Positions 4,757 through 25,995 of a stretch of 64,000 bases of DNA are shown here, piece after piece. Every line of letters begins with the position of its first letter. Position 1 is the first letter of the stretch. The notes beneath the pieces are model-generated. The model did not search any database, was not told the origin of the DNA, and saw only the letters and a program-made list of their open reading frames with translations. Origin of the DNA: Opitutaceae bacterium (GTDB lineage: Bacteria > Verrucomicrobiota > Verrucomicrobiia > Opitutales > Opitutaceae); contig DASZQN010000045.1 in assembly GCA_035549635.1 (NCBI GenBank), forward strand, positions 9,286 through 73,285. The letters run 5' to 3'. A program made the translations under genes and the position numbers.

Positions 4757-5188
4757 TCAGGGGCGCCCCCTCGGCGGAAGCAGCGGGATGTTCTCGAAAT
4801 GGCGGACCTCCGGGACGGCGGTGGAACCCGCGGCCGGCAGCGCGACCTCGACGATGTCGAATCGCACCGTGACCGGCTTGACGCGCAGGCCGGCGAGATA
4901 GGCCTCGATCGCCCGCCGCATCACGGCCCGCTTGCGGGCGTCGACCGCGTGGTAACCCGACACGAGGGCGCCGGCCGCGCGGGCCTTGACCTCGACGAAC
5001 ACCAGCACCTCGCCGTCGCGCGCGACGAGATCGATTTCGTTCCGGCGGTCCCGCGGGCTGCGCCAGTTCCGCGCGACGATGCGGAAGGCCCGCTCGCGCC
5101 GCAGCCAGTCGGCGGCCAGCCGTTCTCCGCGCTCGCCCGGACCCGCCCGCTTGAAAATCCGGAGCCACCGGTCAAAAAGGCCGCTCAT
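4757..5188 (-). CDS. yraN: YraN family (UPF0102) endonuclease-like protein
   Basis: Internal start MSGLFDRW (ATG at 5188-5186). The core [50 protein letters not shown] matches the conserved YraN/UPF0102 pattern. The longer ORF to 5407 would overlap the divergent gspE-like gene. Confidence 0.8.
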
Positions 5189-5195
5189 CGCTGCG

Positions 5196-5233
5196 GAATT
5201 GTCATTGCCGACGGCTGCGCACGCTGACAATTC
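5196..5233. promoter_or_regulatory. 9-bp perfect inverted repeat (GAATTGTCA N20 TGACAATTC) in the 73-bp divergent yraN / GAF-GspE intergenic region; candidate operator
   Basis: GAATTGTCA at 5196-5204 and TGACAATTC at 5225-5233 are exact reverse complements. The tandem TTCAAG A TTCAAG (5231-5243) follows. Confidence 0.3.
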
Positions 5234-5261
5234 AAGATTCAAGTTTTCGCGCCCATCCCCA

Positions 5262-14145: not shown

Positions 14146-15396
14146 ATGAATTCCCTCACCCGCCTCGTCGGCTACTCCGCCGTGCTGCTGCTCGTTTTCC
14201 TCGGCGCGGCGCTGACGGCGCAGAGCTGGCTCCACCGGCAGACCCAGGAGCTGCGCGCCGAGGCGATCGAGGCGCGGCGGGCGCAGTTCCTCGCGGCCGC
14301 GCCGGTCGTGGCGCCGCCAGATCACCGCTGGAGTGCGGCGCAGGAGCGGATCCTCGGCGCCCTGGTCGGGGGCACCGTGACCATCCGGCCGCCCGCGACG
14401 ATGGCGGCGCCAGCCGATCCCGCGATGCTCTCCTTCGATCAGCCGCTCGCCGGGACGACGCCGGCGCTCAGTGCGCGGGTGGTCTTTCCCGCGGCCGCGA
14501 TGACCCGGCTGATTGCGCTGCAACAGCGGGTGGTCGTCGGCCTGGCCCTGCTCGCGGCGGTGCTGCTCGGGCTCTGGTGCCTGCTTGTCGCGTTCGCGTG
14601 GACCCGGCCGCCGCACGAGGTCGTGTCCAGCACGCCCTGGGCGAACGCGCAGGCCGAGATGAGCGGGCTCACCCACCTGGCGCGAACCTCCGTCGCCCAA
14701 GGCGAGGAACTCGGCCGCGAGCGCGATGTGCGCCGCCGCGCCGAGGAGGATGCACAGCTACGGCAGCGGCTGCTGGCCCAGTCCCTGGAGAGCAAGATCC
14801 GGCTGGGGCACGACCTCCACGACGGGATCATCCAGTCGCTCTACGCCGTCGGCCTGACGCTGGAGTCGGTGCGCCCGCTCATCACGAGCGATCCCGGCGA
14901 GGCGGATGGGCGCCTGACGAAATGCCTGCAGAGCCTGAACGCCACCATCCGCGACGTGCGGGCCTACATCACCGGCCTCGGCCCGGAAAACCTGCGCCGG
15001 ATCGGTTTCGCCCAGGCGCTCGAGGCCCTGGTGGCCGAGCTGCGCGCGGACCGCGCGGTCCAGTTCGATCTCCGCATCGACGAGGACGCCACCGCGCTGC
15101 TCTCGCCGGAGCAAAGCATCGACGCCCTCCAGATCGCCCGCGAGGCGATCAGCAACAGCCTCCGTCACGGCCGGGCCACCGCGATCACCGTGCGCCTGCA
15201 GCACAGCGACCGCGAGATCGGGCTGCTCGTGCAGGACAACGGCTGCGGCTTCGATCCCGCCCAGGGCTCCGGCGGCCACGGCCTCGGCAACATGCGGGCC
15301 CGCGCCGAGCGCCTGCGCGCCACCGTCCGCGTCGACAGCCGCCCCGGCGCGGGCACCCGCGTCGTCGTCACCCTCGCCGTCTCCCCTCCCCTATGA
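14146..15396 (+). CDS. Membrane sensor histidine kinase, NarX/DesK (HisKA_3) type
   Basis: Two hydrophobic segments, the H-box HDLHDGIIQSLYAVGL, and the HATPase motifs ISNSLRHG and GHGLGNMRARAE. Confidence 0.85.
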   Translation: MNSLTRLVGYSAVLLLVFLGAALTAQSWLHRQTQELRAEAIEARRAQFLAAAPVVAPPDHRWSAAQERILGALVGGTVTIRPPATMAAPADPAMLSFDQPLAGTTPALSARVVFPAAAMTRLIALQQRVVVGLALLAAVLLGLWCLLVAFAWTRPPHEVVSSTPWANAQAEMSGLTHLARTSVAQGEELGRERDVRRRAEEDAQLRQRLLAQSLESKIRLGHDLHDGIIQSLYAVGLTLESVRPLITSDPGEADGRLTKCLQSLNATIRDVRAYITGLGPENLRRIGFAQALEALVAELRADRAVQFDLRIDEDATALLSPEQSIDALQIAREAISNSLRHGRATAITVRLQHSDREIGLLVQDNGCGFDPAQGSGGHGLGNMRARAERLRATVRVDSRPGAGTRVVVTLAVSPPL

Positions 15397-16052
15397 ATCA
15401 TCCGGAAAAAAAACGCGTGCGCGTCGTCATGGTCGACGACAGCGAAGTCGTGCGCATGGGCCTTCGCTCGCTCCTCGGCGCCGCCCCGGCCATCGAGATC
15501 GTGGGCGAGGCCGCCAACGTCGCTGGCGCGATCGAGACCTGCGCCCGCGTCCGGCCCGACGTGGTGCTGCTCGACATCCGCCTGCCGGACGGCACCGGTT
15601 TCGACGCCTGCCGCCGCATCCTCAAGCAGCTCCCCGAGACCCGCGCCCTGATTCTCACCTCGGTCGCGGACGACACGCTCGTGGACGAGGCGATCCGGGC
15701 CGGAGCGCACGGCTACCTGCTGAAGGAGATCGACGGTGGCGGGCTGATGCGTGCGATCGCCGACGTGGCCGCGGGCAAGTCCACGCTCGACCCCTCCGTC
15801 ACCGCGCGCGTGATCCAGCTGATCAAGAGCGGTTCCTCCACCACGCATGACGCGTTCGCGATCCTCTCGCCGCAGGAGAGGAAAGTGCTCGCGCTGATCG
15901 CGGAAGGGCGGACCAACAAGGAGGTCGCCAGCCAGCTCGGTCTCGCGGAGAAGACCGTGAAGAATTATCTCAGCAACGTGTTCGAGAAGCTGCACGTCAC
16001 GCGCCGCTCCCAGGCCGCGGCGATGTTCGTCCGCGAGTCGCGCCAGCCGTAA
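15393..16052 (+). CDS. NarL/FixJ-family response regulator (REC + LuxR HTH)
   Basis: ATG at 15393 overlaps the kinase stop (ATGA). REC features are VVMVDDSEVV and VLLDIRLPDGTG. The LuxR HTH reads LSPQERKVLALIAEGRTNKEVASQLGLAEKTVKNYLSNVFEKL. Confidence 0.9.
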   Translation: MNHPEKKRVRVVMVDDSEVVRMGLRSLLGAAPAIEIVGEAANVAGAIETCARVRPDVVLLDIRLPDGTGFDACRRILKQLPETRALILTSVADDTLVDEAIRAGAHGYLLKEIDGGGLMRAIADVAAGKSTLDPSVTARVIQLIKSGSSTTHDAFAILSPQERKVLALIAEGRTNKEVASQLGLAEKTVKNYLSNVFEKLHVTRRSQAAAMFVRESRQP

Positions 16053-16295: not shown

Positions 16296-16898
16296 ATGAC
16301 CGCCCACCGCTCCGTCACATCCGGGACCCCCGCCACCGCCGTTCCGGCCGGCGCCCGGACGTCCCGTGCGCGGCGCGGCCGGGGATTCACCCTGGCGGAG
16401 GTGATGATGTCGGTGACGATCTTCGCGATGCTCTCGCTCGGCGTCTATCAGATGCTGATCAAGTCCTATGAGCTGAGCGCGATCACCCGGTACCGGGACG
16501 ATGCCCGCGCCGTGCTGCTGACCTTCGCCGACCAGTTTTCGCGCCTCCAGACGACCCAGACCCACAGCGGGACCGCCTATGCCCGCTACCTCTTCCAACC
16601 CGCCGCCTCCCCGACGGGGACCGGCCTGCAGTGGGGTTCGTTGAGCGACCAGGATTCGCTCACGGCTCTGACATCGGTTCCCTCCCTCTCAGTGACGATC
16701 GGAAATTCGGCGGGCGGAAACGGCATTCCCGCCGCCATCACGCGCACGGTGGTGCCGCTCAATTCCGACGGCACCACCGCCGGCTCGGTGACCTATACCG
16801 CTGCGGGTTACATGCTCCTCGGTACGTTCACGGCCACCTACTCTGTTTTCGGCCATACCTACGTCCAGAGTGTCTCGGTCCTGCGCGCCGCCCCATGA
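16296..16898 (+). CDS. Prepilin-type N-terminal cleavage/methylation domain protein (minor pseudopilin 1)
   Basis: Class III signal: a basic leader ending RRGRG, then FTLAEVMMSVTIFAMLSLGVYQML (G-F-T-L-x-E consensus with Glu+5). 200 aa, typical pseudopilin size. Confidence 0.75.
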   Translation: MTAHRSVTSGTPATAVPAGARTSRARRGRGFTLAEVMMSVTIFAMLSLGVYQMLIKSYELSAITRYRDDARAVLLTFADQFSRLQTTQTHSGTAYARYLFQPAASPTGTGLQWGSLSDQDSLTALTSVPSLSVTIGNSAGGNGIPAAITRTVVPLNSDGTTAGSVTYTAAGYMLLGTFTATYSVFGHTYVQSVSVLRAAP

Positions 16899-18412
16899 TC
16901 CCGACGCCGTCACAATCGAGCGCCCGCCGCCCCCGGAAATCCGGGGGCTTCACGCTGGTCGAGCTCATGGTGTCGGCGACGCTGGGAGCGCTGGTGCTGG
17001 CCGCCGCGGCGTCGATCATCGTGATGACGACCCGCACGGTGTACAAGAACACCATGGTCGACGACGCGGTGAGCACCACCCGCAAGGTCCAGGAGCACCT
17101 CAACAAGGAAATCTCCGTCTCCGTCAGCCAAAGCACGCCGATCAAGATCCAGCCGGTCTTTTCCAATCCCTCCTCCACCACCCCGGTTCGCTACGCCACG
17201 ATCACCTATCGCGTGACGATCGGCTCCTTCTCCACCGTCTATACGGCCACGGACAAGTCCAGCAGCTCGATCGTGCTCAACTCCCCGGCGGACGTGCAGC
17301 CCGCCATCGGCGACTACCTCATGATCGACAGCCCGCTGCTGGGCTCCGCCGGTCCCCCGATCGTGGGTGGCGCCCTGATCACCGCCGTGGACGACCACCG
17401 TTCCAGCGGATCCGCCGGGACCATCACCCTCACGCTGGCGGACTCGATCGACAATTCCACCTACGGCACCTCGCACATCGACATTGACGCCGGCACCATC
17501 GCCAGCATCCAGCGCGAGCGCAAATACGAGACCGTCGACGGCGGGAGCGCCGCGGTCACCGAGCTGCATTGGTATTCCTCGACCGCCTCCGGCACGCCCT
17601 ACCAGGTGCTTTCCACCAATGTGGATTCCACCGATCGCTATCTTTTCGCGCAGGTCCCGGACGACCCGAACGCCCTCGAACCGTCCGTCAGCTGGCGCTT
17701 CCGGTTTCTCTCGTCGGAAACCAATCGCTACCTGCCCGGCTCGAAGCCGAGCTACTACCAGGCCAATTACGCCGAGGGCCTGCTCATGCCGAAGTCCGGC
17801 AACCCGCTGAACGTCTCCTCCTACGCCGGCATCACGACGTCCACCTCCACGACGACGACGACGAGCACGTCGACCAGCACCTCGACCACAACCTCGACGT
17901 CCACTTCGACCACTTCGACCACCAGTTCCAGCACCTCCATCTCCACGACGACTTCGACCACGTCGTCCATCTCCACGACGACTTCGTCTTCGAGCACCAC
18001 CTCGGTCGCGACCACCACCACGTCCACCTCGGTGACGACGACCACGTCGACGACCTCGACGTCGACGACGTCCATCTCGACGACCACCACGTCCACCACC
18101 TCGACGACGTCCATCTCCACGACGACGACGTCCACCACCTCGACGACGTCCATCTCGACGACCACCACGTCCACCACCAGCACGTCGTCGACCTCCATCT
18201 CGACATCGTCGACATCCTCGACCTCGACCTCGTCCTCGGTCACGACCACCTCGACGTCCACCTCGTCCACTTCGAGTTCGGTGTCGACCACCTCGACGTC
18301 GAGCACCTCGAGCACCACGTCGATTTCGACCACCACGACGTCCAGCTCGACCTCCAGTTCCACCAGTATCTCCACGACCACAACCACCACCTCCATCGTC
18401 TTCGATGGTTAG
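16895..18412 (+). CDS. Prepilin-type pseudopilin with 187-aa C-terminal poly-Ser/Thr tract
   Basis: ATG 16895 overlaps the upstream stop (ATGA). The leader is MIPTPSQSSARRPRKSG followed by GFTLVELMVSATLGALVLAAAASIIVM. A globular region of ~290 aa is followed by residues 314-500, which consist only of S/T plus a few I/V/A. The protein ends IVFDG. Confidence 0.75.
   Translation: MIPTPSQSSARRPRKSGGFTLVELMVSATLGALVLAAAASIIVMTTRTVYKNTMVDDAVSTTRKVQEHLNKEISVSVSQSTPIKIQPVFSNPSSTTPVRYATITYRVTIGSFSTVYTATDKSSSSIVLNSPADVQPAIGDYLMIDSPLLGSAGPPIVGGALITAVDDHRSSGSAGTITLTLADSIDNSTYGTSHIDIDAGTIASIQRERKYETVDGGSAAVTELHWYSSTASGTPYQVLSTNVDSTDRYLFAQVPDDPNALEPSVSWRFRFLSSETNRYLPGSKPSYYQANYAEGLLMPKSGNPLNVSSYAGITTSTSTTTTTSTSTSTSTTTSTSTSTTSTTSSSTSISTTTSTTSSISTTTSSSSTTSVATTTTSTSVTTTTSTTSTSTTSISTTTTSTTSTTSISTTTTSTTSTTSISTTTTSTTSTSSTSISTSSTSSTSTSSSVTTTSTSTSSTSSSVSTTSTSSTSSTTSISTTTTSSSTSSSTSISTTTTTTSIVFDG
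17834..18394 (+). repeat. In-frame low-complexity Ser/Thr-coding tract (561 bp) built from ACG/ACC/TCG/TCC/AGC codons
   Basis: Translated directly in the frame of CDS 16895..18412. There are no stops and no Pro, Gly or charged residues. The tract generates long spurious ORFs in other frames and on the opposite strand. Confidence 0.9.
18068..18184 (+). repeat. Three tandem 39-bp units each encoding TSISTTTTSTTST
   Basis: Units at 18068-18106, 18107-18145 and 18146-18184. The peptides are identical, while the DNA differs at synonymous positions (TCG/TCC, ACC ACC/ACG ACG, TCG/AGC). Confidence 0.9.
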
Positions 18413-18436
18413 GCCGGCGGCCGTCCTTCCCTTGTC

Positions 18437-20368
18437 ATGCCCATGAAAACTCACGCCCAACGCGGCAGTGTGCTGGTCACGACCCTCGTCTTTCTCACCA
18501 TCATCATCATTGGTGCGTTTGCCGTCTTCCAGCTGGCCCTGAACTCGTTCAAGAATTCCGAGCGCAACGAGCTGCGCGCCCGCGCCCGCGCGGTCGCCGA
18601 AAGCGAGCTCGAGTACCTGTACTACAATTTCGAAGGGCTGATCGTCGGCGGATCCTCGGCCAACAACGTGCCGTCGAATTTCTCGGCTTTCTGCGACCTC
18701 TCCAGCACACCGACGACGGACCATCCGCCCTTTACCGCCGCCCACCAGGCGCAGAACGACGGCTGGGTCGTCCGCCGCTCGATCACGTTCGACCAGACCG
18801 TGACCGGCACGATCCCGGGCACAACCAAGACCGGCACGATCTCCTATCTGACCGCGAAGATCGAGGTCGTTCCCGGCGCCCGGAGTTCGTCCTACAACAC
18901 GCTGGCCGTGCGCGTGGGACGCCGCTTCAACAACTCGACGACGTCGATCTTCCAGTACAGCATCTTCTTCCAAGGCGACCTGGAACTCGCGCCGAGCGGC
19001 GTGACCACCATCACCGGCGACATCGCGGCCAACGGCAGCATCTACATGGGCGCAAGCAGCGGCGGCACCCTCACCATCAACAACCAGATCCGCCATCTTT
19101 CCGGCTATTACTTCAACGAGGACTCCGCGGGCGCGGCGACGTACCGCAAGCCCGGCACCTGGAATGCCGCGACCGGCACCATCGTCACCACCGACACGAC
19201 CTCCCTCAACGCGCCCCTGTTCGGCACCTCCCAGATCAGCCAGTCCGAGACGATGAACTCGCCGGAGAATCTCCTCGGCGGCCTCGACGCCGACGCGCTC
19301 GCCACTTCGCGCAACGACCTGTTCGGCGCGACCGACACCCCGGCCAACCTGGCCATCGCCGAAAACAACGTCTATCGCTCCCTCATCGCTCCCCCTCCCT
19401 CCGCGGCTTCCACCGACGAGTATCCCACCGGGACCAACCTCAGCACCACTTCAGACGACGCCAGCCTCAACGCCCTCCGCGCGTATACCCGCGCGGGCGT
19501 GATCATCACGGTGGGCCGCACCGACAATGGCGATGGCACTTACAGTTATCCGGTCACCTTCACCGAGACCCGGTCCGGCGTCTCCACCACGGTGCCCGCC
19601 AGCACCTACGCCGGCGTCGTCACCAGCACGAGCATGTACGACCAGCGGGAGGGAAAATACGTCACGATCACCGATATCGATGTCGGTGCCCTCAAGACGA
19701 AGTTGTCCGCCAGCTTCCCCAACGATGCCAGCGGGCAGCCCACCTTTAACGGGCTGCTCTACGTGAACCTCAAGGATGGAGTGACCACCAATCCCGCCGC
19801 CGTCCGCCTGAACAACGCGGCGACGACGCCCGGCGTCGATACCGGCAGCGGATTTTCCGTCGCGACCAACGGCGGCCTCTACGTCCGGGGCAGCTACAAC
19901 ACCACGCCCTACGTCGATCCCAACACCGGCGTCAGTTCCAACAACCCCTGCATGCTGATGAGCGACGCGCTCACCATTCTCTCTTCCTCCTGGAATGACG
20001 CCAACGCCGGACCCACCTCCGACATCAGCCAGCGCGTCGCGACCACCGGCACCACCACGATCAACTCCGGCATCCTCACCGGCAACGTCCCGGCCTCCGC
20101 CACCGTGGCGAGCGGCGGCGCCCAGAACCTCGTGCGCTTCCTCGAGAACTGGACCGACAACAGCGGCAACAAGGGCACGGTGACCTTCAACGGCTCGCTC
20201 GGGCGGCTGTTCTCCTCGAAATATTTCACCGCCGCCTACCAGCAGCCCGGGCAGATCTACACGGTGCCGAACCGCAACTTCACGTTCAACACGGCGATGA
20301 AGACCAAGCGGCCGCCGGGCTCGCCGACGATCACCGCCTTCAGCCGCGGCACTTTCTTCACCTGGTAA
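18437..20368 (+). CDS. Large PilX/GspK-like minor pilin-like secreted protein
   Basis: 643 aa. The N-terminus QRGSVLVTTLVFLTIIIIGAFAVFQLAL lacks Glu+5, as in GspK/PilX-type proteins, and is followed by the PilX_N-like RARARAVAESELEYL. The remainder is T/S/N/G-rich and probably beta-rich. It starts 24 bp after the preceding pseudopilin. Confidence 0.65.
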   Translation: MPMKTHAQRGSVLVTTLVFLTIIIIGAFAVFQLALNSFKNSERNELRARARAVAESELEYLYYNFEGLIVGGSSANNVPSNFSAFCDLSSTPTTDHPPFTAAHQAQNDGWVVRRSITFDQTVTGTIPGTTKTGTISYLTAKIEVVPGARSSSYNTLAVRVGRRFNNSTTSIFQYSIFFQGDLELAPSGVTTITGDIAANGSIYMGASSGGTLTINNQIRHLSGYYFNEDSAGAATYRKPGTWNAATGTIVTTDTTSLNAPLFGTSQISQSETMNSPENLLGGLDADALATSRNDLFGATDTPANLAIAENNVYRSLIAPPPSAASTDEYPTGTNLSTTSDDASLNALRAYTRAGVIITVGRTDNGDGTYSYPVTFTETRSGVSTTVPASTYAGVVTSTSMYDQREGKYVTITDIDVGALKTKLSASFPNDASGQPTFNGLLYVNLKDGVTTNPAAVRLNNAATTPGVDTGSGFSVATNGGLYVRGSYNTTPYVDPNTGVSSNNPCMLMSDALTILSSSWNDANAGPTSDISQRVATTGTTTINSGILTGNVPASATVASGGAQNLVRFLENWTDNSGNKGTVTFNGSLGRLFSSKYFTAAYQQPGQIYTVPNRNFTFNTAMKTKRPPGSPTITAFSRGTFFTW

Positions 20369-20389
20369 GGTTTCCCCGCCGTCCGTCCC

Positions 20390-21280
20390 ATGAAAACCCT
20401 CCCGGCCGAGCCCGCCCGCCTCCCCGCTCCGCGGCCGGACACGCTCACGCCGTTCCGCGGCTTCCTGCATTTCGGCGAGGACGAGGACAATTTCGTGCTG
20501 CTGCGCGCGCGGCGGCTGCTGCGGCTGGGACGGGTCGATCTCGGGCACCTGCTCGAGTCGGAGCCGCCGCCAGATCCCGATGTCACCGCGGTCGTTCCCG
20601 CCCGCAACGAGGAGTCCACGGTCGGCGACGTCGTGCGCGAGTGCCTGCACTACGCGGCGCGCGTCATCGTCGTCGAGGGCGGCTCGACCGACCGCACCGC
20701 CGAGGTCGCGGCCAGGGCCGGGGCCCTCGTCGTGCGCGACCAGGGCCTTGGGAAGGGCGCAGCCCTCCGGCTGGCCGTAGCGCGGGTGGAGACGCCCATC
20801 TGCGTCTTCGTCGATGCCGACGGGTCCCACGATCCGATCGACATTCCGCTGCTCGTGGCTCCGATCAAGAGCGGCCTCGCCGACCACGTCACCGGCTCCC
20901 GCCTCCTCGGCGGCTCGGACGAGCTCCATGGCGGCGGCGACGAGTTCCTCCGGCTCGCCGGCTCGGCCTTCATCACTTCGCTCATCAACTGGCGGTTCGG
21001 CACCTGCCTGTCCGATTCGCAGAACGGCTTCCGCGCGATCCGCACAGACGTGTTCCGCCGCCTCGATCTGCGGGCGCGCCACACCACGATCGAGATGGAG
21101 ATGATCATGGCCACGCTGGTCTCGGGCTTCACCCTCACCGAGGTTCCCACCCACGAGCGTCCCCGCGCCGCCGGGTACTCCAAGATCTCCCTTTCCCGCC
21201 CCGGCACGTGGCTGGCCTACGGCTGGCAGCTGGTCCGCGGGCTGTGCCGGCGAAAGACTTCCTCCCGCCGTCCCGCATGA
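20390..21280 (+). CDS. Family 2 glycosyltransferase (polyprenyl-phosphate sugar synthase-like)
   Basis: GT-A signatures VTAVVPARNEE, VVEGGSTDRT and the DxD-type VDADGSHD. Resembles Dpm1/ArnC/GtrB-type enzymes. It starts 21 bp after the PilX-like gene. Confidence 0.85.
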   Translation: MKTLPAEPARLPAPRPDTLTPFRGFLHFGEDEDNFVLLRARRLLRLGRVDLGHLLESEPPPDPDVTAVVPARNEESTVGDVVRECLHYAARVIVVEGGSTDRTAEVAARAGALVVRDQGLGKGAALRLAVARVETPICVFVDADGSHDPIDIPLLVAPIKSGLADHVTGSRLLGGSDELHGGGDEFLRLAGSAFITSLINWRFGTCLSDSQNGFRAIRTDVFRRLDLRARHTTIEMEMIMATLVSGFTLTEVPTHERPRAAGYSKISLSRPGTWLAYGWQLVRGLCRRKTSSRRPA

Positions 21281-23028
21281 ACGGGGGATTCGACGCCGTG
21301 ATCGGCGTGTGGGACGGCCACGACGCTGGTGCCGCCTTGGTCGTGGACGGCCAGGTCCGGCTCGCCCTGAACGAGGAGCGCCTGAGCGGCCGCAAGCTCG
21401 ATGTCGGTTTCCCCGCGCGCGCCGTCGCCGCCATGCGCCAGGCGGCGGGCGGCCGTCGCATCGCCTGGGCCGGCACCACGTCCGACGCCGCCAAGACCCT
21501 GACGCGGCTGATTCCCTCCACCAAGGAAAGCTATTACCGGCTGCGCCGCCGGCTCGAGCCGCCCGGCCCGCTCCACGGGCTCACCGTGCGCGCGAAATAT
21601 TCACTCACCCAGCTGCCGACCAACGGGCTCCTGCGCGCCTGGGCGCGACGCTCGTTTGCCTCGGCCTTGCAGGTCCCGGCGGGCGAGGTCTTTCTCGTGG
21701 ATCACCACGCCGCGCATGCGGCCTCGGCCGCCTTCTGGCCCGAATGGGGCGGCGACGCCACCATCGTCACGCTCGACGGCATCGGCGATGGCGAATCGGG
21801 CTCCGTCTGGGCCTGGTCGGAGTCGGCCGGCGACATTTCCCCGCTGATCTCCATCCCCGGCTCGGCCTCCCTCGGCCTGTTCTTCGAGCACGTGACCAAC
21901 GAGCTCCAGATGCGCCCGCTGGAGGACGAGGGCAAGGTCATGGCGCTGGCGACCTACGCCGTCGAGACGCCGGTGGAGCGCAATCCGTTCCTGAAGTGGT
22001 TCTCCCTCACCACGGACGCGAAGCGGCTGCCCGTGCTCCGCTGCTCCGTGGCGCCGTCGCGCATGGCGCGCGAGGTTGCGCGCATCGTCTGGTGCACGCC
22101 GCGCGAGCAGGTCGCCCGGATGGCCCAGCAGACGCTGGAGGTCCTGGTGCCGCGGTTCTTCGCGCTGCTGGTCGAGGCCACCGGCCGCGGCGCCTTCGGC
22201 TACGCCGGCGGCGTGGCTTCGAACATCAAGGTCAACCGGCTCATCCGCGGCCTGCCGGGCGTCGAGCGCCTCGAGGTGTGCCCCGCGATGGGCGACGGCG
22301 GCCTCGCGCTCGGCGCCGCGCTCGCCACGTGGCGCCGCCTGACCGGCCGGCGCCCCCAGCCCTTCTCGGATTTCCGCCTCGGCTCCGACCAGGGCGACCT
22401 CGGACGCGACGCCAGCGCGATCGCGCGCCGGACGTCCGCGTCGCTCCTGCGCCCGCCGGATATCGCGGCCGCCGTCGCCGAACGCGTTGCCGCCGGCGAG
22501 ATCGTGATGTGGGCCCAGGGCCGCATGGAACTCGGGGCCCGCGCCCTCGGCGCCCGCAGCATCATCGCCCGGGCCGACAGCGTCGCCGCCCGCGACGATC
22601 TCAACCTGCGCCTCAAGCGCCGGGTGTGGTACCAGCCCTTCTGCCCCTCGATCCTGCTGTCCGAGGCGCCGGTGCTGCTGGCCGACTATCGCGGCCCGCG
22701 CGACACGAACCGCCACATGACCGCCGGCTTCCTCACCACGCCGCGGGGCCGGACGGCGCTCGCCGGTGCGATCGGCCCCGACGGCTCGTGCCGTCCCCAG
22801 ATGGTGGTCGAAAACGAAAGCGACCCATGGTACCGTCTGCTCGCCCGGGTGAAGGCCCTCACCGGCACCGGCGCGATCATCAACACGAGCCTCAACATGC
22901 ACGGGAAGCCGATGTCCGATGCGCCCGAGGGCGTCGTGGAGGCCTGGCTGGAAAGCGGCGTCGAGCATCTCGCGCTCGGTTCCGCCCTGCTGTCGAAGAA
23001 GGCCGCTGCGGCCGCCCCCTCCGCATGA
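21277..23028 (+). CDS. NodU/CmcH-family carbamoyltransferase
   Basis: ATG 21277 overlaps the GT2 stop (ATGA). N-terminal ASKHA-like IGVWDGHDAGAALV...LNEERLSGRK, conserved VDHHAAHAASAF, and a C-terminal region ending ...NTSLNMHGKPM typical of the family. Confidence 0.85.
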   Translation: MNGGFDAVIGVWDGHDAGAALVVDGQVRLALNEERLSGRKLDVGFPARAVAAMRQAAGGRRIAWAGTTSDAAKTLTRLIPSTKESYYRLRRRLEPPGPLHGLTVRAKYSLTQLPTNGLLRAWARRSFASALQVPAGEVFLVDHHAAHAASAAFWPEWGGDATIVTLDGIGDGESGSVWAWSESAGDISPLISIPGSASLGLFFEHVTNELQMRPLEDEGKVMALATYAVETPVERNPFLKWFSLTTDAKRLPVLRCSVAPSRMAREVARIVWCTPREQVARMAQQTLEVLVPRFFALLVEATGRGAFGYAGGVASNIKVNRLIRGLPGVERLEVCPAMGDGGLALGAALATWRRLTGRRPQPFSDFRLGSDQGDLGRDASAIARRTSASLLRPPDIAAAVAERVAAGEIVMWAQGRMELGARALGARSIIARADSVAARDDLNLRLKRRVWYQPFCPSILLSEAPVLLADYRGPRDTNRHMTAGFLTTPRGRTALAGAIGPDGSCRPQMVVENESDPWYRLLARVKALTGTGAIINTSLNMHGKPMSDAPEGVVEAWLESGVEHLALGSALLSKKAAAAAPSA

Positions 23029-24836
23029 GCCCGCGTTTCCAGCGTTTTCTCTGGCTCGGGTTCGCCCTGGCGGTGCTCCTGGCGACCGGGCTGTGGGCGC
23101 TGGGAGTCAGCGAGCGGACCATCGAGGCCCAGCGCCGCCTGGTCCCCGTCTCCACCGTCTGGGGCATGCACGCGTGCGTGGTCGCCATCGTCGCCGGGCT
23201 CGGCGCGATCGCCGTTCCGGTCGCGCGGATCCTGGGACGCCGCCGCCTTCTGACCGCGCTCGTGCTCGTGATCATCGGGGCCCTCGCCTGCGGGCTGGCG
23301 CCGCGCACCACCCGGATCTTTTTCGACGAGCACATCTACGCGCAGATCGGCCAGACCATCGCCCACACCGGACGCGCGGAAAACGTCAACTATGCGCGCG
23401 CGCAGTATGGGAAGCTCGAGGTTTACGACGCCGTGACCAACAAGCAGCCGAACGGGCTGCCCTACCTGCTCTCCTGGATCTTCCGGGTCGTCGGTGTCTC
23501 GGATGAGGCGGCGCACTTCCTGAATCCGGCGCTGGTGGGCCTGACCGCGGCGGCGCTCTACCTCGGCCTCGCCCTGGTCCCCTGGACCCTCCCGGCCGGC
23601 GCCGGCCTCGCCGCGGCGCTGCTGTTCGTCTTCACCCCGCTGGTGCTGTGGTGGGGGCACACCGTCGCGGTCGAGCCGGGGGCCGCGGCGAACGCCACCC
23701 TCGCCTTTTTCGCCGTCTGCGCCTACGCGCGGCTGCGCGACCGCGGGACCGCTCAGGGCGGCCCCGCCGCCGCGATGCTGCTCGCGGGCGCCACGGGCTT
23801 CGCGGTCTACTTCCGGCCCGAGTCCGTCCTGGTCTTCCCGCTGGTGGCCGCCGTGCTGTGGTCCACCGACGATCGTTTCATCGAGGACGTGTCCGCATGG
23901 GGCGCGCTCGCGCTCGCGATCGCGCTCGCGGCGCCGAATGTCATGCACCTCTGGTCGATGCGCGAGGAAAGCTGGGGCGCGCGCGACGGCCGGCGCTTCG
24001 CGCTCGATTTCGTCCAGAAGAACCTCGCCAGCAACGGAGGCTATTTCACCGACCTCAAGTGGTTCCCGATCGCCGGCACCGTGCTCGCGGGGCTGGGCGC
24101 GCTCTGGCTGCTGAAACGCAACCGCACCGCCGGCCTCGCGCTCGGCCTCTGGTTCCTTTTCTCCTGGGGCGTCTTCGTCCTCTTCTACGCCGGCGGCTAT
24201 TACTACGGGGCCAGCTCCCGCTACGCCGTGGTCTCGTGCGCGCCGGTCGCCGTGTTCATGGGCATCGGTCTCACCGCGGCGGTGGCCCGGCTGCGCTCCG
24301 CGCCTCTCCTCGGCTGGGGGCTGGCGGCCGCGGGCCTCATCAGCTGGGTCGCGAGCATGCACTACGTGCCGACGCGCAGCCGCGAGGCGATCGAGGCGCA
24401 GGCCGACGTCGACTTCGTCGCGCGGATCGCGCCGACGCTGCCGACCGGCTCCCTCGTCGTCTCGTCCGATCCCTGCGTGTGGTTGCTGCAGGGGGTCAGC
24501 GCCTCGCAGTTCTACACCGTCGAGCACATGATGCGCGAGGAGCTCGGGGAGCTCGTCAACCAGTACCCCGGCGGCATCTACATCCACTGGGGTTTCTGGC
24601 ACAACGCGGAGGCCGCTGCGGCGGAAGTCACCGCCCGGCTCCTCGTCGAGGACCACGCCGCCGTCGTCGCCCGCACCCAGAGCGAGGCCTACAAGCTCGC
24701 CCTCTACCGTCTCGACACCCCGGAGGCGCTTGCCCGCCCCGGCGTCAAACCGCCGCTTCCCCTGCGGCCGCAGACCGACCTCGATGCCGTGATGGCCCGC
24801 GTCCGGGCCGGATCCACGCCGGCCCCGTCCCAATGA
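23025..24836 (+). CDS. GT-C fold membrane glycosyltransferase (PMT_2/ArnT-like)
   Basis: ATG 23025 overlaps the upstream stop (ATGA). About 11 TM segments. The first periplasmic loop carries the acidic FFDEHIYAQIG motif, as in PMT/ArnT-type GT-C enzymes. The C-terminal ~150 aa are soluble. Confidence 0.7.
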   Translation: MSPRFQRFLWLGFALAVLLATGLWALGVSERTIEAQRRLVPVSTVWGMHACVVAIVAGLGAIAVPVARILGRRRLLTALVLVIIGALACGLAPRTTRIFFDEHIYAQIGQTIAHTGRAENVNYARAQYGKLEVYDAVTNKQPNGLPYLLSWIFRVVGVSDEAAHFLNPALVGLTAAALYLGLALVPWTLPAGAGLAAALLFVFTPLVLWWGHTVAVEPGAAANATLAFFAVCAYARLRDRGTAQGGPAAAMLLAGATGFAVYFRPESVLVFPLVAAVLWSTDDRFIEDVSAWGALALAIALAAPNVMHLWSMREESWGARDGRRFALDFVQKNLASNGGYFTDLKWFPIAGTVLAGLGALWLLKRNRTAGLALGLWFLFSWGVFVLFYAGGYYYGASSRYAVVSCAPVAVFMGIGLTAAVARLRSAPLLGWGLAAAGLISWVASMHYVPTRSREAIEAQADVDFVARIAPTLPTGSLVVSSDPCVWLLQGVSASQFYTVEHMMREELGELVNQYPGGIYIHWGFWHNAEAAAAEVTARLLVEDHAAVVARTQSEAYKLALYRLDTPEALARPGVKPPLPLRPQTDLDAVMARVRAGSTPAPSQ

Positions 24837-25978
24837 GCGCCCTCTACTCCTGGAGCCGCTTCGCCCTGCGCACCGCCGCGTCCGCCGCAGGGGTGGAAGG
24901 GCGCCCGACCAAGCTCATCTACATCGTGACGAAGCGCTGCCACTCGCGCTGCGTGTACTGCGACATCTGGAAGGTGAAGGACACTCCCGGCGGCCTCGAC
25001 GGCGAGCTCACGCTCGACGAGGTGAGGAAGGTCGCCGGCGCCAACCCGTTCCTGCAGTGGATCGATTTCACCGGTGGCGAGCCGACGGACCGGCCGGATT
25101 TCGTCGAGCTGGTCCAGGCCTTTTCCGTCGCCTGCCCGGACCTGCTCCTCGTGCATTTTCCCACCAACGGGATCGCGACGAAGCGCATCACCGGCGTGGT
25201 CGGGCACCTGAAGGACCTGCTCCGCGCCCGCCTCGTGGTGACCGTCTCGATCGACGGCCCGCCCGAGCTCAACGACCGTCTCCGCGGCATCCGCAACGAC
25301 TTCGGCCACGCGGTGGACTCGTTCGTGGCCATCCGGCGGCTCCTCGGGCCCGAGAACGCCTTCGTCGGCATGACGCTGCACGGGTGCAAGGCGTCCTGCG
25401 GATTCACCACCACCGAGCTGGTCGAGCGGACCTTCACCGCGGTCAACGACGCACTGCAGGCCCGCGGCGAGGCCCCGATCGGCTGGGGCGAATTCCACCT
25501 CAACATTCCGCATCTGTCCGAGCACTACTACGGCAACGAACATTCCGACGCCACCGCGAAGGACGGCTTCGGGGGTCCGGCCCACCGCGCGGAAATCGCC
25601 GATGCGCTGCGTTTCGCCGCGGCCCGGACGAAGAGCGGCGGACTGACGGCCATGCGCGCCGTCGAGCGCATCTACCGCTCCGAGGCCATGCGCTACCTTG
25701 CGCACGAGCCGATGTCCATCACCTGCTCCGCGCTTCTCTCCACGGCCTACCTTTCGGAAAAGGGCGACGTCTATCCCTGCACCATCTGGGACCGCCCGCT
25801 GGGCAATGTGCGCACCACGGGCTACGCGCTGATGCCGCTCATCGAGGCGGCCCGGCGACAGGGTGTGCGGCAGGAGGTCGCCGACCGGCGCTGTCCCAAT
25901 TGCTGGACTCCCTGCGAGGCCTATCCCGCCATCGGCACCTCTCCCCTGCAATCGCTCGCGGCGCTCGTCCGCGGCTGA
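24833..25978 (+). CDS. Radical SAM enzyme with C-terminal SPASM/twitch-like Cys cluster
   Basis: ATG 24833 overlaps the upstream stop (ATGA). CX3CX2C motif in KRCHSRCVYCDIW. C-terminal cysteines sit in CSALLSTAYLSEKGDVYPC and CPNCWTPCE. Confidence 0.85.
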   Translation: MSALYSWSRFALRTAASAAGVEGRPTKLIYIVTKRCHSRCVYCDIWKVKDTPGGLDGELTLDEVRKVAGANPFLQWIDFTGGEPTDRPDFVELVQAFSVACPDLLLVHFPTNGIATKRITGVVGHLKDLLRARLVVTVSIDGPPELNDRLRGIRNDFGHAVDSFVAIRRLLGPENAFVGMTLHGCKASCGFTTTELVERTFTAVNDALQARGEAPIGWGEFHLNIPHLSEHYYGNEHSDATAKDGFGGPAHRAEIADALRFAAARTKSGGLTAMRAVERIYRSEAMRYLAHEPMSITCSALLSTAYLSEKGDVYPCTIWDRPLGNVRTTGYALMPLIEAARRQGVRQEVADRRCPNCWTPCEAYPAIGTSPLQSLAALVRG

Positions 25979-25995
25979 GTCCTCCCTTTCCCGCC

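What the first reader, a model, noticed from the sequence alone, without database searches (positions are those of the whole stretch)
17834..18394. 187-residue Ser/Thr-only C-terminal tract on a type II secretion/type IV pilus-like pseudopilin
After a normal class III signal and a ~290-aa globular part, the protein continues with 187 residues. These consist only of Thr and Ser with occasional Ile, Val or Ala. There is no Pro, Gly or charged residue. The protein then ends with IVFDG.

Pseudopilins and minor pilins are normally compact proteins packed into a helical fibre tip. A long, presumably extended and heavily modifiable tail is not a feature I associate with them. Unlike mucin or actinobacterial PMT substrates, the tract lacks proline, so it may have distinct structural properties. 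One possibility is a beta-rich or polar-zipper structure, another a glycan bottlebrush.
Basis: seen in the sequence. Interest (0 to 1): 0.6.

Follow-up and report, generated by a model that had tools for sequence, protein, structure and literature searches.

The report
Pilus subunit with giant Thr/Ser tail
A soil Opitutaceae bacterium encodes a pilus-type (prepilin) protein that ends in a 190-residue tail of almost pure threonine and serine; the tail is a conserved family trait, always next to a private set of membrane sugar-transfer enzymes, so it is most likely a sugar-coated, mucin-like stalk on a pilus tip protein.

Summary
Gene 16895-18412 (+) encodes a 505-aa prepilin-type protein. Residues 313-502 contain only T97, S77, I10, V5 and A1, and the protein ends IVFDG. 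It is the only such tract in the 4.35-Mb genome and is not an assembly artefact. Only the copy number of a 39-bp repeat is uncertain (1 or 3 units), and both forms stay in frame.

The tail is a family hallmark. About 35 sequence clusters, essentially all Opitutaceae/Opitutia, share the head domain. Every full-length member checked carries a Thr/Ser-rich tract of about 50-320 aa, one of about 600 aa, and nearly all end in hydrophobic-x-x-Asp.

AlphaFold2 folds the head confidently and leaves the tail disordered and undocked.

In 9 of 9 relatives' loci with enough flank, as in the window, the gene lies in one cassette: pilin, this pilin, a PilX/HpsA-like protein, a polyprenyl-phosphate-sugar synthase-like GT2, a carbamoyltransferase, a GT-C (PMT_2), a radical SAM/SPASM enzyme and a membrane protein. 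Across 301 genomes of the class, this GT-C subfamily occurs only in the three genomes that carry the strongly matching Thr/Ser-tailed pilin.

Best reading (about 0.55): a periplasmically O-glycosylated, mucin-like stalk on a tip-type minor pilin. This is a new variant of known pilin and disordered-region glycosylation. No glycan has been shown.

The parts
14146..15396 (+). Sensor histidine kinase (HisKA_3 / HATPase_c) upstream of the cassette. It is syntenic in most related loci.
   Evidence: Pfam; synteny by tblastn.
15396..16052 (+). NarL/LuxR-type response regulator, the likely regulator of the cassette (inferred from conserved position only).
   Evidence: Pfam Response_reg + GerE; synteny.
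16296..16898 (+). pil1: a small prepilin-type protein (G|FTLAE, Glu+5 present). Its stop overlaps the start of the next gene (ATGA).
   Evidence: Pfam N_methyl E 1.1e-6; ATGA junction; conserved in 8/8 loci at 43-52% identity.
16895..18412 (+). pil2: the gene of the finding, a 505-aa prepilin-type protein with a Thr/Ser tail.
16895..16948 (+). Class III (prepilin) leader, residues 1-18. The predicted cleavage is between G18 and F19, with Glu at +5 (E23).
   Evidence: Pfam PF07963 over residues 14-39. T20, V22 and E23 are invariant in 13 sequences. One prepilin peptidase gene is present in the genome.
16949..17830 (+). Pilin head, residues 19-312: a long N-terminal helix followed by a beta-rich globular domain. 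It ends in the conserved junction YAEGL(I/L)MPKSGNPL.
   Evidence: AlphaFold2 model of family member P0013 with a 36-sequence alignment: residues 22-332 mostly pLDDT >90, pTM 0.73. Alignments. No relative in the PDB by fold or sequence.
17831..18400 (+). Thr/Ser tract, residues 313-502 (T97, S77, I10, V5, A1). Ile or Val appears about every 13-15 residues in its second half. It is predicted to be disordered.
   Evidence: pLDDT about 30 and coil; unique in the genome.
18068..18184 (+). Three tandem 39-bp units, each encoding TSISTTTTSTTST. They differ only at synonymous sites, including one TCG to AGC Ser switch. This is the site of the 78-bp length difference between assemblies.
   Evidence: unitig depths.
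18395..18409 (+). C-terminal motif I-V-F-D-G (family consensus: hydrophobic-x-[F/Y/L/I]-D-G at the C-terminus). The Asp is invariant in the 36 aligned family members.
18437..20368 (+). PilX/GspK-like 643-aa protein. It has an N-terminal hydrophobic pilin-like segment with Thr instead of Glu at +5. Its C-terminal 87 aa resemble the C-terminus of cyanobacterial HpsA.
   Evidence: NCBIfam NF038301 E 6.2e-13, a partial match far below the cut-off. Sequence. Conserved in 8/8 loci.
20390..21280 (+). GT2 glycosyltransferase of the polyprenyl-phosphate-sugar synthase type.
   Evidence: Pfam Glycos_transf_2 E 3e-19. Best NCBIfam hits are AglJ, PpgS and a dolichyl-P-hexose transferase. PDB hits include ArnC and Dol-P-Man synthase. 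71-79% identical across loci.
21277..23028 (+). NodU/CmcH-type carbamoyltransferase.
   Evidence: Pfam Carbam_trans_N and Carbam_trans_C; NodU E 3.8e-19.
23025..24836 (+). GT-C membrane glycosyltransferase (PMT_2). It carries an invariant RI(F/L)(F/Y)DEH(I/L)Y...TGRAE motif in the long loop after the third transmembrane helix.
   Evidence: Pfam PMT_2 30.6 bits against a cut-off of 26.1. Motif conservation in 8 orthologues. Hydropathy. Exclusive co-occurrence with pil2.
24833..25978 (+). Radical SAM enzyme with a SPASM-like C-terminal domain. Its role is unknown.
   Evidence: Pfam Radical_SAM E 6e-13; SPASM E 3.9e-4, just under the cut-off. 72-77% identical across loci.
25996..28101 (+). Polytopic membrane protein with a weak spermidine-synthase-like C-terminal domain; the last gene of the cassette.
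   Evidence: Pfam Spermine_synth E 7.5e-4, below the cut-off; syntenic in all loci long enough to show it.

Best explanation
pil2 is a minor, tip-type subunit of a type IV filament (type IV pilus or type II secretion-like pseudopilus) in an Opitutaceae bacterium.

Proposed sequence of events:
1. The protein inserts into the inner membrane by its prepilin helix. Its head and tail face the periplasm.
2. The 190-residue Thr/Ser tract is an intrinsically disordered region.
3. While still in the periplasm, the tract is densely O-glycosylated by the cassette's own enzymes. The GT2 loads a sugar onto polyprenyl phosphate in the cytoplasm. The carbamoyltransferase may O-carbamoylate that sugar. The GT-C (PMT_2 type) transfers it to Thr/Ser from its periplasmic Asp-Glu loop.
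4. The result is an extended, protease-resistant, mucin-like stalk or brush. At 0.25-0.35 nm per residue, 190 residues would reach about 50-65 nm.
5. pil2 is displayed together with pil1 and the Glu5-less PilX/HpsA-like protein at the filament tip.
6. The invariant C-terminal hydrophobic-x-x-Asp(-Gly) peptide is a separate functional element, most likely a short docking or capping motif for a partner.

What is shown:
- Gene, frame and tract.
- Family-wide conservation of the tail and its end motif.
- Disorder prediction.
- Operon synteny.
- Exclusive co-occurrence of the GT-C subfamily with the pilin.
- Family-level enzyme assignments.

What is inferred:
- Glycosylation itself, the identity of the sugar, tip location, and the role of the end motif.
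For: 1. Prepilin identity: the N_methyl motif with G-1/F+1/E+5 and a long helix plus beta head in the AlphaFold2 model. The genome has one prepilin peptidase and four secretins.

2. A pilin triad: pil1, pil2 and a Glu5-less PilX-like protein are translationally packed (ATGA overlap, 24-bp gap). The third protein shares HpsA's C-terminal region.

3. The tail is selected for composition, not sequence. In the 32 members measured it is 51-322 aa (median 166). Thr exceeds Ser, and there is almost no acidic residue except at the very end. The punctuating residues vary. One relative carries about 600 aa.

4. Tail disorder: pLDDT about 30-40, while the head reaches >90.

5. Synteny: GT2, carbamoyltransferase, GT-C, radical SAM and the membrane protein follow the triad in 9/9 loci with enough flank. 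The enzymes are 54-85% identical, the pilins 36-52%.

6. The GT2's nearest families are all polyprenyl-phosphate-sugar synthases. The GT-C passes the PMT_2 cut-off. It has an invariant DE motif in the 75-aa loop after TM3, and that loop is predicted periplasmic because the TM2-TM3 turn is GRRR.

7. Phyletic test: among 301 genomes of the class, this GT-C subfamily (E <= 1e-20) is found only in G000, G160 and G292. These are exactly the three genomes with strong pil2 hits, on the same contig about 6 kb downstream. Two congeners of G292 lack both.

8. pil2 is the only Ser/Thr-tract ORF in the genome.

9. Experimental precedents:
- GtrB (GT2) plus the GT-C PgtC2 glucosylate extracytoplasmic Ser/Thr-rich disordered regions in streptococci and protect them from proteolysis (PMC12041528).
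- The GT-C TfpW glycosylates Pseudomonas group IV pilin (bioRxiv 10.1101/2020.04.19.049825).
Against: - No glycan, protein or transcript has been observed. The organism is a metagenome-assembled genome.
- The genome holds about 20 PMT_2-type paralogues, so GT-C genes as such are not diagnostic of protein glycosylation.
- The cassette enzymes could instead modify a polysaccharide, a lipid or the PilX-like protein.
- All enzyme matches are far below equivalog cut-offs, so the sugar is unknown.
- Tip location rests on gene order and the missing Glu5 of the neighbour. The head has no detectable structural similarity to solved GspJ/PilW or any other pilin head. Only three pilin-like genes are present, not the usual four.
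- One diverged relative (G148) keeps the triad, with a Thr-Pro repeat tail, without the cassette. So the tail can exist without these enzymes.
- The roles of the radical SAM/SPASM enzyme and the last membrane protein are unexplained.
Confidence: 0.55

Rival explanations
1. The tract is an unglycosylated flexible spacer or tether. Its only job is to hold the conserved C-terminal peptide, or the pilin head, at a distance. The neighbouring sugar enzymes serve another product, such as an exopolysaccharide, lipopolysaccharide or the PilX-like protein.
For: - The most conserved element of the tail is its last 5 residues, not the tract.
- Tail length and composition drift freely.
- A relative with a Thr-Pro repeat tail lacks the cassette.
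- The genome holds about 20 PMT_2 paralogues with presumably non-protein substrates.
Against: - It does not explain why the tract is so strongly Thr/Ser-biased in every cassette-bearing member. These are the acceptor residues of O-glycosylation.
- It does not explain why a private GT-C subfamily occurs only where this pilin occurs.
- A naked poly-Ser/Thr chain of 190-600 aa would be expected to be exposed to periplasmic and extracellular proteases. Streptococcal Ser/Thr-rich regions need glycosylation for protection (PMC12041528).
Confidence: 0.2
2. The tract is the covalent anchor or primer of a long polysaccharide, making a proteoglycan. The triad plus cassette would be a pilus-dependent slime or exopolysaccharide export system analogous to the cyanobacterial Hps / EPS-type minor pilin set.
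For: - The downstream protein shares the HpsA C-terminal region.
- In cyanobacteria, HpsA-like PilX proteins pair with a PilV that has a long polar coil, and are tied to polysaccharide-dependent motility (PMC13759059).
- GT-C enzymes fed by polyprenyl-phosphate monosaccharides can build oligomers, as proposed for TfpW (bioRxiv 10.1101/2020.04.19.049825).
Against: - The cassette has no polymerase, flippase, Wzx/Wzy or synthase-type genes and only one GT2.
- The HpsA match is partial: 87 of 1503 profile positions, 47 bits against a cut-off of 400.
- No Hps pseudopilin model matches pil1 or pil2 at E <= 0.01.
Confidence: 0.12
3. The tract folds into a regular beta-rich structure (polar zipper, beta-solenoid or amyloid-like fibre).
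For: - Thr, Ile and Val favour beta strands.
- In this protein Ile or Val recurs every 13-15 residues.
Against: - AlphaFold2 predicts coil with pLDDT of about 30 in two independent runs.
- Relatives replace Ile/Val by Lys, Gly, Leu-Gly, Ala-Gly, Gln, Arg or Pro, with periods from 5 to about 14. This does not fit a shared fold.
- Length varies from about 50 to about 600 aa.
Confidence: 0.05
4. The tract is an artefact: an assembly error in a low-complexity repeat, or not translated in this frame because the real product stops earlier or the antisense Val/Glu/Asp-rich ORF 17821-18396 is the gene.
For: - The short-read graph breaks at the 39-bp repeat, and two assemblies differ by 78 bp.
- An antisense ORF of 191 aa with high GC3 exists.
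Against: - Both flanks of the tract are covered without a mismatch in four runs.
- Both length variants are in frame.
- The Ser/Thr frame is continuous with the pilin head. In all but the most diverged relative read (L009), including those on very long contigs, it ends at the same conserved hydrophobic-x-x-Asp peptide.
- Ser is encoded by both TCN (65) and AGY (12) codons, which points to selection on Ser in this frame.
- The antisense frame shares wobble positions with the sense frame, which explains its openness and its high GC3.
Confidence: 0.02

Closest known systems
Pseudomonas aeruginosa / P. paraeruginosa group IV pilin with TfpW (a GT-C D-arabinofuranosyl transferase); bioRxiv 10.1101/2020.04.19.049825
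   Same: - A type IV pilin gene is genetically linked to a GT-C membrane glycosyltransferase.
- That enzyme modifies pilin Ser/Thr in the periplasm from a polyprenyl-phosphate sugar donor.
   Different: - There the substrate is the major pilin, modified at a few sites on a folded head.
- Here it is a minor-pilin-like protein with a dedicated disordered tract of 190 aa (up to about 600 aa in relatives).
- The GT-C here is PMT_2-type, with no detected relationship to TfpW.
- The cassette adds a carbamoyltransferase, a radical SAM/SPASM enzyme and a further membrane protein.
Streptococcal Ser/Thr-rich extracytoplasmic disordered regions glycosylated by GtrB (GT2) plus PgtC2 (GT-C, YfhO family); PMC12041528
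   Same: - The same logic: a poly-Ser/Thr disordered region outside the cytoplasm, a GT2 polyprenyl-phosphate-sugar synthase and a GT-C transferase.
- Glycosylation protects the region from proteolysis.
   Different: - Those regions are short tails or linkers on membrane-associated housekeeping proteins such as PrsA and PBP1a, in monoderm bacteria.
- The enzymes there are not linked to one substrate.
- Here there is a single giant tract on a pilin in a diderm bacterium, with a private, co-inherited enzyme set of a different GT-C family.
Cyanobacterial EPS-type core minor pilins: PilX_EPS (HpsA-like) with PilV_EPS; PMC13759059
   Same: - A minor pilin set contains an enlarged PilX whose sequence profile maps to HpsA.
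- It is paired with a pilin that carries a long, flexible, polar, low-complexity segment.
- Glycosyltransferase genes lie nearby in the hps locus.
   Different: - Only the last 87 residues of the neighbour match HpsA.
- In cyanobacteria the polar coil is an internal loop between strands beta3 and beta4. Here the tract is C-terminal, and AlphaFold2 does not dock the end back onto the head.
- Three pilin-like genes are present instead of four.
- No sequence similarity of pil2 to Hps pseudopilins was detected.
Modular type IV pilins, e.g. Streptococcus sanguinis PilB; PMC8179133
   Same: A pilin module carries an extra C-terminal module that gives the filament a new surface property.
   Different: Known modules are folded domains such as vWA or lectin. 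Here the 'module' is a low-complexity Thr/Ser tract plus a 5-residue terminal motif.
[quoted passage not shown]
   Same: A short, conserved C-terminal peptide is the proposed attachment point to a minor pilin complex. This is a possible model for the invariant hydrophobic-x-x-Asp-Gly end of pil2.
   Different: PilY1 is a large non-pilin protein. Here the peptide sits on a pilin itself. Docking was not testable with these tools because no multimer prediction was available.
Actinobacterial protein O-mannosylation (Ppm1 GT2 plus Pmt GT-C), recalled from my own knowledge
   Same: A polyprenyl-phosphate-sugar synthase and a PMT-like GT-C act on Ser/Thr-rich regions of exported proteins.
   Different: - Those substrates are Pro/Thr/Ala-rich, and the enzyme is GT39 (Pfam PMT, PF02366).
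- Here only PMT_2 is matched, the tract is proline-free, and the system is specific to one cassette.

Membership tests
Type IV pilin / pseudopilin superfamily (prepilin-type N-terminal cleavage/methylation proteins) | Class III signal peptide: a short basic leader, Gly at -1, Phe at +1, Glu at +5 and a hydrophobic alpha1N segment. | tested here: met
   Pfam PF07963 E 2.9e-7, 30.2 bits against a cut-off of 21.2. TIGR02532 at 16.3 bits, exactly at its cut-off. The sequence reads RKSGG|FTLVE.
Type IV pilin / pseudopilin superfamily (prepilin-type N-terminal cleavage/methylation proteins) | A long N-terminal alpha-helix packed against a beta-sheet head. | tested here: met
   AlphaFold2 model of family member P0013: helix 22-74 followed by more than 12 strands, head pLDDT mostly >90, pTM 0.73. 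The window's own protein was modelled only with a shallow alignment and gave a poor model.
Type IV pilin / pseudopilin superfamily (prepilin-type N-terminal cleavage/methylation proteins) | A prepilin peptidase and an assembly machinery in the same genome. | tested here: met
   One Peptidase_A24 gene, four secretins, and a GAF-MshEN-T2SSE ATPase at 4986-7442.
Type IV pilin / pseudopilin superfamily (prepilin-type N-terminal cleavage/methylation proteins) | Incorporation into a filament. | not testable with these tools
   This needs sheared-pili proteomics or immunogold electron microscopy.
Core minor pilin / tip complex (GspH-I-J-K, FimU-PilV-W-X) | A cluster of several pilin-like genes that includes one lacking Glu+5 (GspK/PilX type). 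| tested here: met
   The pil1, pil2 and 643-aa genes are contiguous. The third reads RG|SVLVT, with Thr at +5. The triad is conserved in 8/8 loci.
Core minor pilin / tip complex (GspH-I-J-K, FimU-PilV-W-X) | A head fold like solved GspJ/PilW (or GspI/PilV) structures. | tested here: not met
   The best Foldseek PDB hit has E 1.2e-3 and TM-score <= 0.25, and no pilin is among the top hits. A profile search of PDB sequences hits only the N-terminal helix at E >= 0.08.
Core minor pilin / tip complex (GspH-I-J-K, FimU-PilV-W-X) | Four core minor pilins. | tested here: not met
   Only three pilin-like genes are in the cassette, in all loci.
Cyanobacterial Hps / EPS-type minor pilin set (HpsA = PilX_EPS, PilV_EPS) | A neighbour that matches the HpsA profile. 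| tested here: inconclusive
   NF038301 E 6.2e-13, but only profile positions 1328-1412 of 1503, and 47 bits against a cut-off of 400.
Cyanobacterial Hps / EPS-type minor pilin set (HpsA = PilX_EPS, PilV_EPS) | The polar coil is inserted between beta3 and beta4 of the pilin fold, so it is a loop and not a tail. | tested here: not met
   In the AlphaFold2 model of the short-tailed member, the C-terminal motif stays undocked with pLDDT of about 36. A monomer model cannot exclude docking onto a partner.
Lipid-linked-sugar protein O-glycosylation (GT2 polyprenyl-P-sugar synthase plus GT-C; GtrB/PgtC2-, Ppm1/Pmt- or TfpW-like) | A GT2 of the polyprenyl-phosphate-sugar synthase class. | tested here: met
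   The best NCBIfam hits are AglJ (1.6e-39), PpgS and a dolichyl-P-hexose transferase. PDB hits include ArnC and Dol-P-Man synthase. All are below equivalog cut-offs, so the assignment is at class level only.
Lipid-linked-sugar protein O-glycosylation (GT2 polyprenyl-P-sugar synthase plus GT-C; GtrB/PgtC2-, Ppm1/Pmt- or TfpW-like) | A GT-C enzyme with a conserved acidic motif in the first long extracytoplasmic loop. | tested here: met
   PMT_2 at 30.6 bits against a cut-off of 26.1. FDEH is invariant in 8 orthologues. The motif lies in the 75-aa loop after TM3, and the preceding turn GRRR implies a periplasmic side. That topology is inferred from hydropathy.
Lipid-linked-sugar protein O-glycosylation (GT2 polyprenyl-P-sugar synthase plus GT-C; GtrB/PgtC2-, Ppm1/Pmt- or TfpW-like) | Linkage of the enzyme and a Ser/Thr-rich extracytoplasmic acceptor. 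| tested here: met
   Same operon in 9/9 loci. The GT-C subfamily is present in 3 of 301 genomes, and these are exactly the three with strong pil2 hits.
Lipid-linked-sugar protein O-glycosylation (GT2 polyprenyl-P-sugar synthase plus GT-C; GtrB/PgtC2-, Ppm1/Pmt- or TfpW-like) | A glycan actually attached to Thr/Ser of the protein. | not testable with these tools
   This needs mass spectrometry, glycostaining or a mobility shift in enzyme mutants.
GT39 protein O-mannosyltransferases proper (Pfam PMT, PF02366, with MIR domain in eukaryotes) | A match to the PMT (PF02366) model. | tested here: not met
   Only PMT_2 (PF13231) is matched. No PDB sequence relative appears at E <= 0.1.

The most novel reading that the evidence does not exclude
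The triad plus the five-enzyme cassette is an undescribed 'pilus-borne mucin' system.
- A type IV filament tip complex would carry a 50-150-nm bottlebrush of (possibly carbamoylated) sugars on a poly-Thr/Ser chain.
- The invariant C-terminal hydrophobic-x-x-Asp-Gly peptide would dock by strand addition onto pil1 or the PilX/HpsA-like protein, as PilY1's C-terminus is proposed to do.
- The tract would then be a closed glycosylated loop, not a free tail.
- This would be a verrucomicrobial counterpart of the cyanobacterial EPS-type pili, in which the 'slime' is a glycoprotein covalently tied to the pilus.
- The radical SAM/SPASM enzyme would install a further, so far unknown, modification on the sugar or the peptide.
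Probability: 0.15. Interest if true: 0.8.

Novelty: new variant of a known kind. Interest (0 to 1): 0.55.

Why it matters
Pilins are normally compact proteins. Known pilin glycosylation decorates a few sites on the major subunit.

Here a whole protein family devotes one third to two thirds of a minor pilin to a Thr/Ser tract. It also carries its own private lipid-linked-sugar glycosylation cassette.

If the tract is glycosylated, three things follow:
- It would give one natural substrate to a GT-C subfamily. GT-C enzymes are a very large class that mostly lack assigned substrates.
- It would extend the newly recognised principle of 'Ser/Thr-rich disordered regions glycosylated by GT2 plus GT-C' from streptococci to diderm Verrucomicrobiota.
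- It would suggest how soil and freshwater Opitutaceae build an adhesive, lubricating or protective coat at a pilus tip.

The link to HpsA-like PilX proteins may also bear on how type IV filaments are coupled to slime or exopolysaccharide in other phyla.

Tried and rejected
1. The tract as an internal loop whose conserved end returns to the pilin sheet, as in cyanobacterial PilV_EPS. I modelled the short-tailed member P0013 with a 36-sequence alignment. The head folded confidently, but the last 48 residues stayed below pLDDT 50 and undocked. This is not supported for the monomer. Docking onto a partner remains open.

2. Classifying the head as GspJ/PilW/PilV. Foldseek against the PDB and a profile search of PDB sequences found nothing beyond the N-terminal helix.

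3. A full-length AlphaFold2 run of the window's own protein with 13 sequences gave a poor model (mean pLDDT 46.8). I used it only for the tail.

4. Assembly artefact. Rejected from Logan unitigs in four runs and from comparison with a second assembly. Raw long reads were not available for this organism.

5. The antisense 191-aa Val/Glu/Asp ORF as the real gene. Rejected, because it shares wobble positions with the sense frame. The sense frame is continuous with the pilin head and ends at a conserved motif in relatives.

6. 'Proline-free tail goes with the cassette'. Rejected as a rule. P0030 has a Thr/Val/Pro/Arg tail and the full cassette. Only the Thr-Pro-repeat relative in G148 lacks the cassette.

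7. Synonymous differences between the three 39-bp units as a frame test. Four of the five differences are also synonymous in the antisense frame, so the test is weak. Only the TCG to AGC switch discriminates.

8. Literature searches for an already described poly-Ser/Thr pilin tail found none. The library does not cover subscription journals.

9. PDB sequence searches for the GT-C and the PilX-like protein found no relatives.

Full report
**What is there**

The window is high-GC DNA (about 0.61-0.75 in 2-kb windows). Related loci are titled Opitutaceae, Opitutia or Verrucomicrobiota metagenome-assembled genomes.

On the + strand, an ORF whose likely ATG is at 16895 runs to the stop at 18410-18412. 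It encodes 505 aa.
- Residues 14-39 match the prokaryotic N-terminal methylation motif (PF07963, E 2.9e-7, above the cut-off). The motif reads RKSGG|FTLVE, that is Gly-1, Phe+1, Glu+5.
- Residues 313-502 (window 17831-18400) contain only T97, S77, I10, V5 and A1.
- The protein then ends FDG.
- A six-frame scan of the whole 4.35-Mb genome (107 contigs, 98.8% complete) finds no other ORF with a 40-aa window of at least 80% Ser+Thr.
- About 18 ORFs carry a canonical prepilin motif. This one is the longest.

**Is it an artefact?**

Tandem Repeats Finder shows many short imperfect periods and one clean 39-bp x 3 array. The three units (18068-18184) each encode TSISTTTTSTTST and differ only synonymously.

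In four soil-metagenome runs:
- Logan contigs cover both flanks of the tract without a single difference.
- The graph breaks only at this array.
- A 99-108-bp unitig containing the distinctive middle unit is present at about flank depth.
- The 39-mer shared by units 1 and 3 is at roughly 1.5-3.8x flank depth.

This fits three units. A second public assembly, about 99% identical over 5.4 kb, has exactly two units fewer. The deletion is 78 bp, in frame, and the rest of the aligned tract stretch is identical. It gives a 479-aa product. That difference is either strain polymorphism or a collapse.

Relatives on very long contigs keep long in-frame tails. Examples are a 1.29-Mb contig whose neighbouring gene is broken into three ORFs, and a 'MFD' contig. 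From their names and error pattern I infer these are long-read assemblies.

The antisense 191-aa Val/Glu/Asp ORF (17821-18396) is a shadow. Its third codon positions coincide with those of the sense frame. Ser is encoded by both TCN (65) and AGY (12) codons.

**The tail is a family hallmark**
- A word-indexed search found seven relatives, 48-49% identical in the head. All have Ser/Thr-rich tails and all end (I/V)-x-F-D-G(E).
- A profile search of 1.84 billion cluster representatives found 35 clusters at E <= 1e-30.
- In the 32 members measured, the tail after the conserved junction MPKSGNPL is 51-322 aa (median 166). Thr always exceeds Ser. Acidic residues are essentially confined to the last few positions. 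The punctuating residues differ by lineage: none, K, L-G, A-G, Q, R, V or P.
- One Verrucomicrobiae relative has a tail of about 600 aa and, exceptionally, ends VRGG.
- Across 36 aligned members only seven columns are invariant: Met1, the pilin Glu5, four head residues and the C-terminal Asp.
- In a sample of 301 genomes of the class, matches spanning the full head occur in four genomes, all of the same family. The other matches are confined to the N-terminal part, mostly the prepilin helix.

**Structure**

With a 13-sequence alignment, the window's protein modelled poorly. The tail came out as coil at pLDDT of about 30.

With a 36-sequence alignment, the short-tailed member P0013 gave a confident head: helix 22-74 plus a beta-rich domain, pLDDT mostly >90, pTM 0.73. 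The last 48 residues, including the terminal motif, stayed below 50 and undocked.

The head has no relative in the PDB by Foldseek (best TM-score <= 0.25) or by profile search.

I had hoped to show that the tract is a loop closed by the terminal strand, as in cyanobacterial PilV_EPS. The monomer model does not support that.

**Context**

The gene is the second of eight co-directional, tightly packed genes:

| Gene | Window | Evidence |
|---|---|---|
| pil1 | 16296-16898 | ATGA overlap with pil2 |
| pil2 | 16895-18412 | this finding |
| 643-aa protein | 18437-20368 | hydrophobic N-terminus lacks Glu5 (RG\|SVLVT); last 87 aa match the C-terminal part of HpsA (E 6.2e-13, far below the cut-off) |
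| GT2 | 20390-21280 | nearest families are all polyprenyl/dolichyl-phosphate-sugar synthases: AglJ, PpgS, Dol-P-hexose transferase, ArnC, DPMS |
| NodU-type carbamoyltransferase | 21277-23028 | |
| PMT_2-type GT-C | 23025-24836 | |
| Radical SAM/SPASM-like enzyme | 24833-25978 | |
| Polytopic membrane protein | 25996-28101 | weak spermidine-synthase-like end |

A histidine kinase and a NarL-type regulator lie just upstream.

The order pil1, pil2, PilX-like, GT2, carbamoyltransferase, GT-C, radical SAM, membrane protein is kept in all nine relatives' loci with enough flank. The enzymes are 54-85% identical and the pilins only 36-52%. That pattern is what one expects for exposed proteins.

The GT-C has an invariant RI(F/L)(F/Y)DEH(I/L)Y...TGRAE motif in the 75-aa loop after its third transmembrane helix. 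The preceding turn is GRRR, so the loop should be periplasmic (topology inferred).

**Co-occurrence test**

Although the genome has about 20 PMT_2-type paralogues, this particular GT-C subfamily (E <= 1e-20) is found in only 3 of 301 genomes of the class.
- These are G000, G160 and G292, exactly the three with strong pil2 hits.
- In each case it lies on the same contig about 6 kb downstream.
- Two other members of G292's genus have neither, so the unit is gained or lost as a block.
- A fourth genome (G148) has a diverged triad whose pilin carries a roughly 220-aa Thr-Pro repeat tail ending PLPDF. It lacks the GT-C and carbamoyltransferase orthologues.

**How it most likely works**

Prepilins sit in the inner membrane with their C-terminal part in the periplasm. 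This is established knowledge of the family. The tract is therefore exposed to the periplasmic face of the GT-C.

The GT2 plus GT-C pair is the standard way to glycosylate outside the cytoplasm from polyprenyl-phosphate monosaccharides.
- Streptococci were recently shown to glucosylate Ser/Thr-rich disordered regions with GtrB plus the GT-C PgtC2, protecting them from proteolysis (PMC12041528).
- Pseudomonas group IV pilin is glycosylated by the GT-C TfpW (bioRxiv 10.1101/2020.04.19.049825).

I therefore read the tract as a densely O-glycosylated, extended, mucin-like stalk on a tip-type minor pilin. The sugar may be O-carbamoylated.

Pairing with a Glu5-less, HpsA-like PilX recalls the cyanobacterial EPS-type minor pilin set. 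There, an enlarged PilX co-occurs with a PilV that carries a long polar coil (PMC13759059).

The invariant terminal hydrophobic-x-x-Asp(-Gly) peptide is a distinct element. A short C-terminal stretch is how PilC/PilY1 is predicted to dock on minor pilins (bioRxiv 10.64898/2026.09.18.752573), so a docking role is plausible but untested.

Glycosylation, the sugar, tip location and the roles of the radical SAM enzyme and the last membrane protein are inferences or unknown.

**Rivals**
- An unglycosylated spacer, with the enzymes serving another product (0.2).
- A proteoglycan primer of an Hps-like slime system (0.12).
- A folded beta structure (0.05).
- An artefact (0.02).

**Verdict**

I found no description of such tails in the searched literature.

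Earlier notes of this scan describe many pilin plus GT-C pairings in other phyla. The general theme is therefore recurrent. This case stands out in four ways: the size of the tract, its presence on a minor pilin, the conserved end motif and the five-enzyme private cassette.

I rate it a new variant of a known kind, with interest 0.55.

Noticed in passing
window 24833-25978: A radical SAM enzyme with a SPASM-like C-terminal domain is a fixed member of the cassette (72-77% identical across loci). Its weak best matches are peptide-maturing radical SAM/SPASM enzymes. pil2 has no cysteine at all, so thioether chemistry on the tail is excluded. The substrate (sugar or peptide) is unknown.
   Followed up: partly
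window 25996-28101: The last gene of the cassette encodes a polytopic membrane protein of about 700 aa. Its C-terminal part weakly resembles spermidine synthase (Pfam E 7.5e-4, below the cut-off). It is syntenic in all loci long enough to show it. It could be a flippase or a modifying enzyme.
   Followed up: partly
window 4986-7442: A GAF-MshEN-T2SSE (PilB/MshE-like) ATPase lies 10 kb upstream. Housekeeping genes on the opposite strand separate it from the cassette. The same arrangement is seen in locus L001. No platform, secretin or peptidase gene is nearby.
   Followed up: partly
genome G000 (20 places): The genome carries about 20 PMT_2-type GT-C paralogues, an unusually large set. Only the cassette copy is linked to a Ser/Thr-tract protein.
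   Followed up: no
G160:C8:11672-12457 and 14383-15285 (L013): One related genome has two tandem copies of the Ser/Thr-tailed pilin upstream of a single cassette.
   Followed up: no
L014 (G148:C4:525843-526745, minus strand): A diverged triad has a pilin with a roughly 220-aa Thr-Pro repeat tail (TPTPTRTPT...) ending PLPDF. Its genome lacks the GT-C and carbamoyltransferase orthologues. This may be a natural 'rigid linker instead of glycan' variant.
   Followed up: partly
L009:10621-13602: The most diverged relative, a Verrucomicrobiae metagenome-assembled genome, has a Ser/Thr/Ala/Lys tail of about 600 aa. It ends VRGG, without the otherwise invariant Asp.
   Followed up: no
window 17821-18396 (minus strand): An open 191-aa antisense frame of Val/Glu/Asp with GC3 0.92 runs under the tract. 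It is a shadow ORF: its wobble positions coincide with those of the sense frame. It could mislead gene callers.
   Followed up: yes
window 16296-28101 against loci L001-L009: Across orthologous cassettes the enzymes are far more conserved (54-85% identity) than the three pilin-like proteins (36-52%). This fits diversifying pressure on exposed parts.
   Followed up: partly
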